From an uncultured delta proteobacterium (lineage in GTDB: Bacteria; Desulfobacterota; Binatia; Bin18), in assembly GCA_963733195.1 (NCBI GenBank), contig CAVTCR010000050.1, positions 64,001 to 128,000 on the forward strand: a stretch of 64,000 nucleotides of DNA, in the 5' to 3' direction. Under the pieces are notes generated by a model. That model was not told the DNA's origin, searched no databases, and was given only the letters and a program-made list of their open reading frames with translations. Every line of letters begins with the position of its first letter. The first letter of the stretch is position 1. Below, piece after piece: positions 41,180 through 42,790 of the stretch. The position numbers were made by a program, and so were the translations under genes.

Positions 41180-42790
41180 ATGCCTTCAGCCATGCGCCCA
41201 CGCAAACGCGCGAACTGGCCAGTTATCGTGTACCGCTACTGGGTAGACCCCGAGTACAACACCTGGGAGCGTCTCCCACGCGTCATCCAACAGGAAGCAG
41301 AGGCGATGCGGGCATTGTGGAATCAGCTGGTCACTGCCTTTGTCCAACGTCAAGCTACTTATCACAACACAGTCGCGGCTCTCCCTCCCACAGCGACAAT
41401 AGAAACTGGAGAGTGTTCCCCCTCTATAGCCAACACGACAGTGAAGCCTTCACCACTCGTGCTGCGCCAGTTGCAACAAACATTTCTCCAGACAACCCAG
41501 GAGGTGAGCAAAGCTTCTTCTGTCACTTGGGCGAACAAACAGTTCATTACTACACAATTTTTTGCCGCCCTCACACGATTTTTCAAGAAACAAGGCGACC
41601 CTCCACGGCAACGAACCGGAGAGTTTCGTGAGGTTCATTTTCAGCATCGCTTCACCGAGGGCGGACTGCCGATCGAGCGGATCTTTGGCCATAGTCAGCG
41701 ACTTTGCCTTACGTCCGTTGCCCCTGACGCCTTCTCTCCTGCCCTTTCTCAGCGACAACAAAAAAGATTGGCGCGCACAACTGGGGCTTTCCAAGTCAAT
41801 GGTTGTATTGTGAAATTTCACACGATTTTGCACCGCCCACTTCCATCAGGCGCGTATCTTAAAGTGGCTGCACTGATTGGCAAGCGCATTATCCAAGAAG
41901 GTTATCACTGGAACGGTGTTGGGGGGCAGCCGACGCCTGCGCGCTGGAACTGGTCGTTGCAGCTCACGCTGGAAGTGCCTCCTCAGCCACTCCCAACCCT
42001 GTTGCCCAAGGCAACGGCAGCACTACAAATTCGCTGTGAGTTGATCGATGAGCAACATGTGAGTTTCGCTATTTTGACAGATGCCACAGGACGTGAAGAG
42101 GCCTTTTTTCTCCCCGAAACATTGCTTACCTCTTGGCAGTACAAACGCAGACTGCAAAAGCAAGCCGATCAACTGCTGGAAGTCACCAAACAGCAATTAC
42201 AAGATCTACCACTAACGGGGCAATCGCCCAGCACTCAACAGCGATTCTCCCATCTCAGAGCGGCACGCGCCCCAGGGTTGTGGCGATTATTCCAGGTATT
42301 AGAACAAGAAGGCGCATCGGATGCAGCCATACAGCTCTTACGCCACTGGGCCAGTTGCTCAACCAAGTTGCTGCGTGAAGCGCGCGGATTGGAGCAGCGC
42401 TATCTCGGTCATCGCGATTGGTTTTATCACAACCTCGCGTTGCAGCTCTGCCATCGTTATCAACAACTTGTTGTCACGGTATCAGACATAACCGCAACAT
42501 CAGCCGAGCAAGACAGCAGAATCATTGCCGCTCCTCACGAGTCGCAAATTTATCGCCAACTTGCAGCCCCAGCTCGCTTTTTATCCTTTCTGCACCAAGC
42601 AGCAGACAAGACTGGCACGACAGTGAAAGAAGATTTGCGGATTGCAACACGTCGGACATTACCGGCAGCAAAGACCACTCGTTTCCAGACCCAGTTCAGC
42701 GGGGAAAAAGCTGAAACTATAGCCCAAAGTCTATCGAAAGTAGCCAGTAGTCAGGAGTCAGTAGAGAAGGAAGTAGTCAGTAGCCAGTAG
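41180..42790 (+). CDS. nuclease-dead, C-terminally truncated Cas12m-like (type V-M/TnpB lineage) RNA-guided DNA-binding protein
   Basis: Motifs collinear with Cas12m as recalled: VYRY, LWNQLV, TWAN, LHRPLPSGA, W.LQLT, LGHRDWFYHNLA, RQLAAP. RuvC-I and RuvC-II acidic residues are replaced (AALQIRC; LVVTVSD); Zn finger and RuvC-III are absent. Confidence 0.75.
   Translation: MPSAMRPRKRANWPVIVYRYWVDPEYNTWERLPRVIQQEAEAMRALWNQLVTAFVQRQATYHNTVAALPPTATIETGECSPSIANTTVKPSPLVLRQLQQTFLQTTQEVSKASSVTWANKQFITTQFFAALTRFFKKQGDPPRQRTGEFREVHFQHRFTEGGLPIERIFGHSQRLCLTSVAPDAFSPALSQRQQKRLARTTGAFQVNGCIVKFHTILHRPLPSGAYLKVAALIGKRIIQEGYHWNGVGGQPTPARWNWSLQLTLEVPPQPLPTLLPKATAALQIRCELIDEQHVSFAILTDATGREEAFFLPETLLTSWQYKRRLQKQADQLLEVTKQQLQDLPLTGQSPSTQQRFSHLRAARAPGLWRLFQVLEQEGASDAAIQLLRHWASCSTKLLREARGLEQRYLGHRDWFYHNLALQLCHRYQQLVVTVSDITATSAEQDSRIIAAPHESQIYRQLAAPARFLSFLHQAADKTGTTVKEDLRIATRRTLPAAKTTRFQTQFSGEKAETIAQSLSKVASSQESVEKEVVSSQ
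42681..42740 (+). CRISPR. single Cas12m-type repeat (42681-42717) plus guide, embedded in the 3' end of the dCas12m-like ORF
   Basis: GTTTCCAGACCCAGTTCAGCGGGGAAAAAGCTGAAAC (37 nt): TTCAGC/GCTGAA stem and CCC/GGG pseudoknot. Followed by TATAGCCCAAAG, the reverse complement of 30479-30490. Confidence 0.7.

What the first reader, a model, noticed from the sequence alone, without database searches (positions are those of the whole stretch)
42681..42745. Solo CRISPR repeat and guide encoded inside the coding 3' end of its own effector mRNA
The repeat folds as a TTCAGC/GCTGAA stem whose loop GGG can pair with the upstream CCC. This is the pseudoknot layout recalled for Cas12m repeats, with different but covarying stem bases. 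No second repeat was found, so array finders would miss it. The overlap with the CDS resembles the TnpB omegaRNA arrangement. Processing would cut the effector's own mRNA, giving possible autoregulation. Complementarity stops after 12 nt, enough for binding rather than cleavage.
Basis: partly seen in the sequence, partly recalled or inferred. Interest (0 to 1): 0.8.

Follow-up and report, generated by a model that had tools for sequence, protein, structure and literature searches.

The report
Dead Cas12m with one fixed guide
A nuclease-dead, shortened relative of the CRISPR protein Cas12m carries a single CRISPR repeat and a fixed 12-base guide at the end of its own gene, and the guide matches the promoter of a linked outer-membrane-protein gene, so it looks like a natural RNA-guided gene repressor.

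Summary
ORF 41180-42790 (+) encodes a Cas12m-like protein that has lost the RuvC residues and the whole zinc-finger/RuvC-III end. A covariance model built only from true CRISPR repeats beside distant, array-bearing homologues gives one significant hit in the window, at 42681-42717. It is the only copy in the 6.9 Mb genome.

The 30-nt core is invariant at 27 of 30 positions in 25 distinct homologous contexts, although the proteins are only 44-74% identical. The reading frame over it differs between homologues, so it is an RNA element, not coding sequence.

Conservation continues for 12 nt after the repeat (42718-42729) and then stops. This 12-mer, preceded by CCT, lies over the -10 box and spacer of a promoter-like site (30479-30490) upstream of a DUF1302-like outer-membrane gene.

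Guide and target change together in three variants across four assemblies. No target was found in 9 of 12 genomes searched. No RNA ends, binding or repression are shown.

Best reading: a Cas12m-derived analogue of the TldR repressors. I found no description of it in the literature I could search.

The parts
41180..42790 (+). ORF of 536 aa (P0001): a RuvC-dead, C-terminally truncated Cas12m-like protein. The conserved start is M5 at 41192. The conserved protein ends near residue 483-485 (about 42630). The rest is an unconserved read-through tail.
   Evidence: PADLOC Cas12u1 3.1e-28. PDB Cas12m 23vw_A 1e-11. Foldseek top hits are Cas12m2 8hhl at 6e-19 and Cas12m 8pm4. The catalytic columns hold Q and T in place of D and E, and there is no zinc-finger/RuvC-III segment. 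Residues 486-536 have pLDDT below 50.
42681..42717 (+). Single Cas12m-type CRISPR repeat. The invariant 30-nt core is 42688-42717.
   Evidence: Covariance model from true array repeats: 22.1 bits, E about 1e-5, model positions 1-36 of 36. 27 of the 30 core positions are invariant in 25 distinct contexts. It is the only copy in the genome.
42695..42715 (+). Hairpin TTCAGC (42695-42700) with GCTGAA (42710-42715), loop GGGGAAAAA. Loop G's 42701-42704 can pair with CCC 42690-42692 to form a pseudoknot.
   Evidence: 93.9% of cells are paired, and 0 of 500 shuffles reach this. Pair 16:34 occurs as UA, GC, AU and CG. The CCC/GGG arms barely vary (one U-G wobble, one broken pair), so they carry little information on the pairing. 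The layout matches the Cas12m2 crRNA.
42718..42729 (+). Fixed 12-nt guide TATAGCCCAAAG.
   Evidence: Conservation falls to 0.3 bits or less from position +13, except +14. Two repeat+guide copies in each of 3 genomes share exactly 12-13 nt and then differ. There are exact matches to a promoter in 4 assemblies.
30479..30493 (-). Target. The protospacer is 30479-30490, read on the minus strand as TATAGCCCAAAG. The PAM-like CCT is 30491-30493 (minus strand).
30464..30492 (+). Promoter-like site TTGCAC (30464-30469), 17 nt, TATAAG (30487-30492). The protospacer covers the first four bases of the -10 box and 8 nt of the spacer.
   Evidence: Read by eye. The hexamers are conserved in 4 assemblies while the spacer varies with the guide. 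The scan tool, which asks for T at the last -10 position, does not list it. This is an inference.
30779..33035 (+). DUF1302-like outer-membrane-protein gene, copy B, downstream of the targeted promoter and a leader of about 290 nt. It is split over several frames in this assembly.
   Evidence: Pfam DUF1302 1.9e-12. The intact homologue is the 741-aa L014 3654-5879. Frames are shown.
38826..41061 (+). DUF1302-like gene, copy A, directly upstream of the cas12m-like gene. It is 79% identical in DNA to copy B and is also split over frames.
38482..38496 (+). Target-like site upstream of copy A on the sense strand: CCT then TATAGCACAAGT, with 3 mismatches to the guide. Its role is unexplained.
   Evidence: Similar sites occur in L012, L005, L053, L002 and G018.
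35542..38379 (-). Divergent regulator gene (OmpR-type wHTH + AAA_16 STAND ATPase + TPR) beside copy A.
   Evidence: Pfam hits.

Best explanation
The gene at 41180-42790 encodes a Cas12m-derived protein that can no longer cut nucleic acid with RuvC.

The 3' end of its transcript contains one CRISPR repeat (42681-42717) followed by a fixed guide of about 12 nt (42718-42729). Protein and RNA are proposed to form a complex. The complex would recognise CCT plus the 12-nt match at 30479-30490, pair with the coding strand over the -10 box and spacer of the promoter of a DUF1302-like outer-membrane-protein gene, and so keep RNA polymerase off that promoter.

In some relatives (L014, L026) the targeted promoter drives the operon that itself encodes the protein and the guide, which would be negative autoregulation. 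In this genome and in its congener G009 the exact target sits in front of a second, paralogous copy of the outer-membrane gene. The copy linked to the cas12m-like gene has only a mismatched site, which would be repression of a paralogue in trans.

Shown here: homology of protein and repeat to Cas12m systems, loss of catalytic residues, solo status, nucleotide-level constraint, a 12-nt guide boundary, and guide-target covariation.

Inferred: that the RNA is made and trimmed, that the complex binds, that the site is a promoter, and that the effect is repression.
For: Protein:
- Sequence and fold point to Cas12m: PADLOC Cas12u1 3.1e-28, PDB Cas12m 1e-11, Foldseek Cas12m2 6e-19.
- Array-bearing homologues L031 and L032, and L011, keep D, E, D and the zinc finger. 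P0001 has Q and T at those columns and lacks the last segment.

Repeat:
- Real arrays stand beside L031 and L032.
- A covariance model built from them alone finds 42681-42717.
- The stem covaries, and the layout matches published Cas12m2 crRNA.

RNA rather than protein constraint:
- 27 of 30 core positions are invariant in 25 distinct contexts, against 44-74% protein identity.
- The element is read in three frames and the stop position varies.
- The tail has pLDDT below 50.

Guide length:
- Information drops after +12.
- Duplicate copies in G006, G007 and G009 share 12-13 nt and then diverge.

Target:
- CCT plus an exact 12-mer lies about 270-390 nt upstream of a DUF1302-like gene in G000 (guide ...CCCAAAG), L014 (same guide), G009 (...CCCAAAA) and G002 (...GGAAAA).
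- The -35 and -10 hexamers are conserved, and every match ends at nt 12.
- L026 begins inside the same target type and runs into the outer-membrane gene and then the cas12m-like gene.
- The outer-membrane gene neighbours the cas12m-like gene in 19 of 32 fetched loci.

Literature:
- Cas12m silences by binding (abstracts).
- Mismatches within 12 nt of the PAM abolish PmCas12m activity (passages).
- Pre-crRNA processing by Cas12m is RuvC-independent (passages).
- TldRs are RuvC-mutated, C-terminally truncated, use 9-16-nt guides and target promoters of linked genes (passages).
Against: - No RNA evidence. RNA-library contigs hold 150-270-nt pieces of the gene at 97-99% identity, but they show neither ends nor transcription.
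- The stretch folds no better than shuffles.
- The promoter is read by eye and the scan tool does not list it.
- A target at an outer-membrane-gene promoter was found in only 3 of 12 whole genomes searched, plus one metagenome contig. None was found in G018 (96% complete) or G037, which carry the same guide as G002. None was found in 4 of 4 genomes of genus g5, even with an 11-mer. None was found in G001 or G068. In G007 the two extra 12-mers lie before an HtrA-like protease gene and inside a ThyX-like ORF, not before an outer-membrane gene.
- Two lineages (L007/L066 and L008/L063) show no recognisable repeat in the flank available.
- CCT is not the TTN or YTN PAM of characterised Cas12m.
- Cas12m structures read 17-18 bp, and the RuvC domain helps hold the scaffold. 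Part of that domain is missing here.
- Both outer-membrane gene copies in the window are split over frames, so the regulated gene may be dead here, or the assembly may be faulty.
- Genome-wide, the 12-mer count is not significant on its own.
Confidence: 0.7

Rival explanations
1. The repeat+guide RNA and the protein are real partners, but the outcome at the target is not repression. The complex might recruit or position polymerase, as the dCas12f-sigmaE systems do. Its main target might also be elsewhere: a mobile element, or the mismatched site upstream of copy A.
For: Exapted dCas12f drives transcription rather than blocking it (title and abstract of PMC13472631). A conserved target-like site, TATAGCACAA, sits upstream of the cas12m-linked gene copy in several clades. 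Most genomes searched show no exact target.
Against: The exact target overlaps the -10 box and spacer, a position expected to exclude polymerase. No sigma-factor domain was found among the 10 neighbouring ORFs scanned. Covariation is with the promoter site, not with the mismatched site.
Confidence: 0.08
2. In this particular genome the system is a relic. The family is or was functional, but here the regulated outer-membrane genes are broken and the loop no longer does anything.
For: Both DUF1302-like copies are split over several frames. A Tn5-type transposase gene lies between them.
Against: The cas12m-like ORF is intact. The repeat is identical to the family consensus. Guide and target still match 12 of 12 with CCT. 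Frameshifts in two copies that are 79% identical may be assembly errors.
Confidence: 0.1
3. The conserved 30-mer is a cis-acting RNA or DNA signal of the operon, such as a protein-binding site on its own mRNA, a stability element or a terminator, and does not guide DNA recognition. On this view the 12-nt matches are a by-product.
For: The element always lies at the 3' end of an operon. That holds after outer-membrane genes without a cas12m-like gene (L052, L053) and once upstream of one (L023). Hairpins follow the guide in some clades.
Against: It is homologous in sequence and structure to spacer-flanked repeats of real arrays. Three compensating guide-target changes, with a sharp end at nt 12, are not expected of a by-product.
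Confidence: 0.06
4. The two inverted 12-mers are terminal inverted repeats of a mobile cassette carrying the outer-membrane gene and the cas12m-like gene.
For: The copies are inverted and flank the unit in L014. Ends of a mobile element would also covary.
Against: There is no transposase in the unit and no similarity beyond 12 nt. In G000 and G009 the left copy flanks a different paralogue. One end is a promoter-like site with conserved hexamers and the other a CRISPR repeat. The genome holds a single copy.
Confidence: 0.04

Closest known systems
Type V-M CRISPR-Cas12m (MmCas12m/Cas12m2, GoCas12m, PmCas12m)
   Same: It is the best sequence and fold match. The crRNA handle has the same pseudoknot-plus-helix layout ending in AC, and no tracrRNA is apparent. 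Cas12m acts by DNA binding that blocks transcription, not by cleavage, and its PAM-proximal 12 nt are critical.
   Different: There is no array: one repeat, one fixed guide. The RuvC residues are lost and the zinc-finger/RuvC-III segment is deleted. The guide is about 12 nt, against about 17-20. The PAM-like motif is CCT, against TTN or YTN. The target is a chromosomal promoter of a linked gene, not a mobile element.
TldR, TnpB-like nuclease-dead repressors (fliC-, csrA-, oppF-associated)
   Same: Both are nuclease-dead and C-terminally truncated. Both have a fixed guide encoded at the 3' end of the gene, and the guides are short (9-16 nt). Both target the promoter of a linked or paralogous gene, in either the autoregulatory or the paralogue-replacing pattern (passages, passages).
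   Different: TldRs descend from transposon TnpB and use an omegaRNA-type scaffold of about 100 nt. Here the nearest active relatives are CRISPR-array-bearing Cas12m proteins, and the scaffold is a 30-37-nt CRISPR repeat. The host phylum and the regulated gene are also different.
Exapted dCas12f with sigmaE (RNA-guided transcription)
   Same: Both are CRISPR effectors that lost nuclease activity and their array, and became gene regulators with a fixed RNA (titles and abstracts; PMC10691335 passages).
   Different: That system derives from Cas12f, works with a sigma factor and activates transcription. No sigma-factor gene was seen among the neighbours here, and the target position suggests repression.
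Cas9 long-form tracrRNA autorepression of the cas9 promoter
   Same: Both use a natural truncated guide for binding without cleavage at the system's own promoter (mentioned in the TldR preprint discussion).
   Different: That system uses an active nuclease with a full CRISPR system, and a different protein family and RNA.
TnpB omegaRNA overlapping the tnpB 3' end
   Same: In both, the guide RNA gene overlaps or abuts the 3' end of the effector ORF, with scaffold 5' and guide 3'.
   Different: The omegaRNA scaffold is long and marks a transposon end, and its guide is flanking DNA. Here there is no transposon end, and the overlap with the ORF varies between homologues.

Membership tests
Type V-M CRISPR-Cas12m | Effector with Cas12m-like sequence and fold | tested here: met
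   PADLOC Cas12u1 3.1e-28. PDB Cas12m 1e-11. Foldseek ranks 1-4 are Cas12m2 or Cas12m. TM-scores are low (about 0.3).
Type V-M CRISPR-Cas12m | CRISPR array of repeats and variable spacers | tested here: not met
   There is one repeat in the window and in the genome. Arrays exist beside the distant homologues L031 and L032.
Type V-M CRISPR-Cas12m | Repeat of about 36 nt forming a pseudoknot and helix, ending A(-2) C(-1) | tested here: met
   The covariance model from array repeats hits 42681-42717. The published layout is in PMC10442227, section 7.
Type V-M CRISPR-Cas12m | RuvC domain (canonical or HDD) and zinc-finger TNB domain present | tested here: not met
   The catalytic columns hold Q and T, and the segment with CxxC and RuvC-III is absent. 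Pfam finds no OrfB domains.
Type V-M CRISPR-Cas12m | PAM-dependent, crRNA-guided dsDNA binding | not testable with these tools
   The only support is indirect: CCT precedes all four exact targets.
TldR (TnpB-like nuclease-dead repressors) | Descent from transposon-borne TnpB with an omegaRNA-type scaffold of about 100 nt | tested here: not met
   The nearest active relatives carry CRISPR arrays. Conservation starts only 30 nt before the guide.
TldR (TnpB-like nuclease-dead repressors) | RuvC inactivated and C-terminus truncated | tested here: met
TldR (TnpB-like nuclease-dead repressors) | Fixed guide complementary to a promoter region of a conserved neighbouring or paralogous gene | tested here: met
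   Exact 12-mer plus CCT at the DUF1302-like gene promoter in G000, L014, G009 and G002, with covariation. Not found in 9 other genomes.
TldR (TnpB-like nuclease-dead repressors) | Demonstrated repression of the target | not testable with these tools
   No expression data are available.
dCas12f-sigmaE RNA-guided transcription | Conserved linkage to an ECF sigma factor gene | tested here: not met
   None of the 10 flanking ORFs scanned has a sigma-factor domain. The conserved neighbour is a DUF1302-like gene.

The most novel reading that the evidence does not exclude
A whole family in Candidatus Binatia-like bacteria (73 protein clusters in the search; 12 of 36 genomes sampled from the window's own family carry the gene) would be a third, independent route from RNA-guided nuclease to natural transcription factor. 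The route starts from a CRISPR Cas12m effector whose array collapsed to one repeat and one 12-nt guide.

Extra repeat+guide copies sit behind paralogous outer-membrane genes that have no cas12m-like gene of their own (L052, L053), and one sits upstream of such a gene (L023). If these are functional, each operon would export a guide in its 3' end. A single protein would then read those guides to decide which outer-membrane paralogue is expressed.

The protein may also trim the guide out of its own mRNA. Where the stop codon lies beyond the cut, that would leave a message without a stop codon, a second autoregulatory layer.
Probability: 0.3. Interest if true: 0.85.

Novelty: new variant of a known kind. 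Interest (0 to 1): 0.74.

Why it matters
Natural RNA-guided transcription factors are so far known from TnpB (TldR) and from Cas12f (with sigmaE). This would add a Cas12m-derived line, in a poorly studied, uncultured phylum.

It has an unusually small RNA part, about 30 nt of handle plus 12 nt of guide, and a protein of about 485 conserved residues. The repeat is under stricter selection than the protein.

The guide-target pairs give ready-made natural compensatory mutants for testing. It also shows that a single repeat, which array finders cannot see, can mark a working RNA-guided system. Such a compact binder could be of use as a small programmable repressor.

Tried and rejected
Database scans that gave nothing:
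- Rfam at E up to 1 over 38000-46000 gave no match, so the repeat is in no curated family.
- Pfam and NCBIfam gave nothing for the protein.
- There are no tRNA genes in the window.

Promoter and terminator scans:
- The scan around the target listed no sigma-70 site at 30464-30492.
- Around the repeat it gave no promoter, and only weak terminator-like sites at 42871-42885 (+) and 43006-42990 (-).

Target searches that found nothing useful:
- The promoter and leader of copy B have a DNA homologue only in L014 among the first 33 loci.
- Searches for targets near the gene in L002, L005, L012, L022 and L053 with up to 3 mismatches gave only unconvincing sites.
- The second 12-mer in the window's own genome (C14:31970, preceded by CTG) lies just before a CoA-transferase gene fragment on the same strand as the gene. 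I take it for chance.
- L011's solo guide has no second copy in its genome.

Sequencing runs:
- All holders had small shares, 0.20 or less.
- Contigs of three RNA libraries (X8, X17, X19) and one DNA run were laid. They carry short pieces of the gene at 97-99% identity and many unrelated hits on the heptamer repeats at 42770-42810.
- Contigs show no RNA ends, and DNA carry-over cannot be excluded.
- I draw no conclusion on expression or habitat from them.

Rejected ideas:
- I first read the duplication 30869-33043 / 38910-41069 as a recent insertion event. I dropped this when G009 showed the same two-paralogue layout.
- I also considered that the mismatched site upstream of copy A is a divergent promoter for the regulator gene. 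The hexamers fit in the window but not in G018, so this is left unexplained.

- Supplementary files of papers are closed. The supplementary tables of PMC10691335 (TnpB/Cas12 census) and of the Cas12m papers may list this clade, and I could not see them.
- My statement that it is not described rests on searches, and on find-passages. I read only the listed passages, section 7 of PMC10442227, and abstracts, not whole papers.
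Full report
**What is at the coordinates**

The window reads cgtttccaga CCC agt TTCAGC GGGGAAAAA GCTGAA AC TATAGCCCAAAG tctatcg... from 42680.

The stretch lies inside the formal ORF 41180-42790 (+), 536 aa. As a bare thermodynamic fold it is unremarkable: z 0.79, and 159 of 200 shuffles fold at least as well. Rfam has no family for it.

**The protein**

- Pfam and NCBIfam find nothing.
- PADLOC's Cas12u1 model matches at 3.1e-28 over residues 95-483. V-U1 is the former name of V-M, as in a section heading of PMC11013384.
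- The best solved relatives by sequence are Cas12m chains (23vw_A, 1e-11).
- An AlphaFold model from a 23-sequence alignment has mean pLDDT 78.2. It finds Cas12m2 (8hhl, 6e-19) and Cas12m (8pm4) first, ahead of dCas12f and TnpB. TM-scores are low (about 0.3), as expected for a flexible multi-domain protein.

I aligned P0001 and relatives with three fuller relatives: L031 and L032, which have arrays, and L011. Those three carry D (GIDLN / ALDLG), E (LEDIDL / VEDLNL), a CxxC...C..H zinc finger and D (DENA). P0001 has Q and T at the first two columns, and simply ends before the zinc finger and the third motif.

Among the six other family members in that alignment, each lacks at least two of the three catalytic residues. 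Only P0069 keeps the zinc-finger segment.

Residues 486-536 of the model have pLDDT below 50.

**The repeat is a CRISPR repeat**

Two distant homologues (27% identity) stand beside real arrays. These have 36-37-nt repeats spaced 73-75 nt apart (L031 7948-8598; L032 7873-8046 and 9311-9623). Their proteins match the Cas12u1 model end to end and PDB Cas12m.

Their repeats share the plan AGACCC, 3 nt, stem, GGGG-rich loop, stem, AAC.

I built a covariance model from 15 of these array repeats only. With filters off it gives one significant hit in the 64-kb window: 42681-42717 (+), 22.1 bits, E about 1e-5, covering the whole model. The next hit is at E 0.038.

I counted pairs over 11 repeats from five kinds of locus.
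- 93.9% of cells pair, and 0 of 500 shuffles reach this.
- Sliding the partner by one column drops pairing to about 50%.
- One stem pair occurs as U-A, G-C, A-U and C-G.
- The CCC/GGG arms barely vary (one U-G wobble, one broken pair), so they say little either way.

The published Cas12m2 crRNA has a helix -22..-17 with -8..-3, then A(-2) and C(-1), stacked on a second helix (PMC10442227, section 7, read in full). Here the helix is -23..-18 with -8..-3, then A and C.

**Solo status**

The core occurs once in the window and once in the 6.95-Mb, 87-contig genome. A loose structural pattern gave six hits in the genome, of which only this one is a true copy. The genome has one cas12m-like gene.

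**RNA, not protein, is under selection**

A word-based search found 73 homologous protein clusters, mostly unnamed or from MAGs titled Candidatus Binatia or Deltaproteobacteria.

In the protein alignment the tails after residue ~483 fall into three groups...TQFSGEKAETIAQS...RPSSAGKKLKHIVKSVA and ...DPVQRGES*. These are the same DNA read in three frames.

Of the 32 fetched loci L002-L033, 21 carry the core with at most 2 mismatches. Among the rest:
- Six end before the gene's 3' end.
- L031 and L032 have arrays.
- L011 has a diverged solo copy 75 nt after its stop codon.
- L007 and L008 show none in the flank available.

Over 25 distinct contexts, positions -30 to -1 are invariant at 27 of 30 positions. 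One loop base is free, and two positions have a single variant each. Positions upstream of -31 carry almost no information. The proteins in these loci are 44-74% identical to P0001.

I gave 21 loci to the stop-codon script and 18 could be evaluated. The stop lies before the repeat in 6, inside it in 4 and after the guide in 8. So the overlap with coding sequence in this window is formally true but incidental.

**The guide is about 12 nt**

After the repeat, positions +1 to +12 remain partly conserved. The variants are TATAGCCCAAAG, TATAGCCCAAAA, TATAGCGAAAAG, TATAGCGGAAAA, TATAACGAGAAA and ATATAGTAAAAT.

From +13 the information is 0.3 bits or less, apart from +14.

Three genomes hold two repeat+guide copies each: G006 (L044, L041), G007 (L046, L048) and G009 (C62, C150). 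In all three the two copies agree for 12-13 nt and are unrelated after that.

**The target**

The 12-mer recurs at 30479-30490 on the minus strand, preceded by CCT. On the plus strand the site reads TTGCAC, 17 nt, TATAAG. The protospacer covers the first four bases of the -10 hexamer and eight bases of the spacer. This promoter is my reading. The scan tool, which demands T at the last -10 position, does not report it.

About 290 nt downstream starts a DUF1302-like gene. Its intact form is the 741-aa ORF of L014.

That gene stands directly upstream of the cas12m-like gene in most loci long enough to show it, and has a hit in 19 of 32 loci.

- In L014 (74% identical protein, syntenic) the order is hydrolase, promoter with the same exact 12-mer and CCT, leader, outer-membrane gene, cas12m-like gene, repeat, guide.
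- In G009, a congener, the guide ends in A instead of G, and the exact 12-mer with CCT sits about 295 nt before an outer-membrane gene at a contig end.
- In G002 the guide is TATAGCGGAAAA. The exact 12-mer with CCT sits about 300-390 nt before an outer-membrane gene on contig C22.
- L026, from a related sample, starts inside that same target type and continues into the outer-membrane gene and the cas12m-like gene.

Aligning the four promoters shows -35 and GCTATAAGGCGC fixed. The spacer bases change exactly as the guides do, at positions 7, 8 and 12. Every match ends at nt 12.

The guide's own DNA is preceded by AAC, not CCT. By analogy with CRISPR self-avoidance, this would keep the complex off its own gene. 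That is an inference.

**Results against, or limiting, this reading**

A target at an outer-membrane-gene promoter was found in 3 of 12 whole genomes searched (G000, G009, G002), plus L014.
- None was found in G018 (96% complete, 50 contigs) or G037, although both share G002's guide.
- None in four genomes of genus g5, even with an 11-mer.
- None in G001 or G068.
- G007 has two extra 12-mers. One lies 14 nt before an HtrA-type protease gene, preceded by CTT. The other is a 14-nt match inside a ThyX-like ORF. Neither is before an outer-membrane gene.

Most of these genomes are incomplete MAGs.

In the window's own genome the 12-mer count (2 besides the guide) is close to the roughly 0.8 expected from genome size. 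The weight therefore rests on position, PAM and covariation, not on the count.

Both outer-membrane gene copies in the window are split over frames.

No RNA ends are available. Contigs of three RNA libraries carry near-identical pieces of the gene, which shows presence only.

**Layout in this genome**

The window has two copies of the outer-membrane gene, 79% identical in DNA (30869-33043 and 38910-41069).
- Copy B follows the exact target.
- Copy A precedes the cas12m-like gene. It has, on its sense strand, CCT then TATAGCACAAGT, three mismatches to the guide (38482-38496).
- Between the copies lie a Tn5-type transposase gene and a divergent regulator gene (wHTH + STAND ATPase + TPR).

G009 and L012 show the same two-paralogue pattern. 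So the arrangement is older than this genome. Here the predicted action is on the paralogue in trans. In L014 and L026 it is on the operon's own promoter.

**Comparison with what is known**

Cas12m proteins bind and silence without cutting (abstracts).
- Their PAMs are TTN (Cas12m2), YTN (PmCas12m), YTTS (MkCas12m) or TTV (PpCas12m), or 'T- and C-rich' (passages).
- Mismatches within 12 nt of the PAM abolish PmCas12m activity.
- Processing of their pre-crRNA does not need RuvC.

The census of TnpB and Cas12 notes 'gradual inactivation' within V-M. It describes other exapted dead TnpBs, but in the passages I saw there is none linked to outer-membrane genes.

TldRs share the loss of RuvC, the C-terminal truncation, short fixed guides and promoter targets of linked genes. 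But they come from TnpB and have long scaffolds.

The dCas12f-sigmaE system is the precedent for a CRISPR effector turned regulator.

I found no paper that describes a solo-repeat, dead Cas12m derivative, or links DUF1302 with CRISPR. Supplements were closed.

**Verdict**

The most likely function is RNA-guided repression of a DUF1302-like outer-membrane-gene promoter by a Cas12m-derived, nuclease-dead protein using a single repeat and a 12-nt guide (confidence about 0.7).

It works like a TldR. It is not a member of that family, and it is not a canonical type V-M system either. I rate it a new variant of a known kind.

Noticed in passing
window 53584-53675 (+): c-di-GMP-I riboswitch aptamer, 70.3 bits against a gathering score of 35.
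   Followed up: no
window 30296-30341 (+): Match to Rfam Acido-Lenti-1 RNA at 34.2 bits, just under its gathering score of 37 (E 4.5e-6). It lies directly after the hydrolase gene and before the targeted promoter.
   Followed up: no
window 30497-30600 (+); L014 3391-3495; L078 5519-5620: The leader between the targeted promoter and the outer-membrane gene is conserved in three assemblies. It folds into a consensus structure of 25 pairs, 3 of them with compensatory changes. No Rfam family matches it.
   Followed up: partly
window 30869-33043 and 38910-41069: Two copies of the DUF1302-like gene region, 79% identical in DNA. Both are split over several reading frames. A Tn5-type transposase gene (33156-34571) and a STAND-type regulator gene lie between them.
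   Followed up: partly
window 38482-38496 (+); L012 3254; L005 about 3360; L053 about 200; L002 about 3385; L077 about 7905 (-): A conserved target-like motif, TATAGCACAA (variants in L053, L002 and G018/L077), on the sense strand upstream of the cas12m-linked outer-membrane gene. It is preceded by CCT in three cases. It shares 6-10 of the first 12 guide bases but never matches fully. Unexplained.
   Followed up: partly
L053 (G006:C201) 2733-2772; L052 (G007:C132) near 4439 (-); L023 3140-3181: Repeat+guide copies without an adjacent cas12m-like gene. Two lie directly after paralogous outer-membrane genes, and one lies about 250 nt upstream of such a gene.
   Followed up: partly
L050 (G007:C31) 4171-4182 (+): An exact 12-nt match to that genome's guide, preceded by CTT. 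It lies 14 nt before the start of an HtrA/DegP-type protease gene (Trypsin_2 + PDZ), in the same orientation relative to the gene as the promoter targets. It could be chance, since about 0.9 matches are expected in that genome.
   Followed up: partly
window 42739-42808, 43151-43182, 60589-60620 and others: Tandem heptamer repeats (AGTAGCC and relatives) directly after the guide and elsewhere. Similar heptamers follow the guide in L012-L016. They attract many unrelated metagenome contigs.
   Followed up: no
L004, L005, L009, L010, L041 just after the guide: In the clade with guide ATATAGTAAAAT a hairpin starts right at nt 13. It reads CCGTTgcttAACGG, and in the second copy CCGCTcttcAGCGG, which is a compensatory change. 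It may define the RNA's 3' end.
   Followed up: no
L003, L004, L007 record titles: Three contigs that carry the gene belong to MAGs titled Enterobacteriaceae or Klebsiella pneumoniae. The genome search places their genomes in the same family as the window's genome and as MAGs titled Candidatus Binatia. The titles are probably wrong.
   Followed up: no
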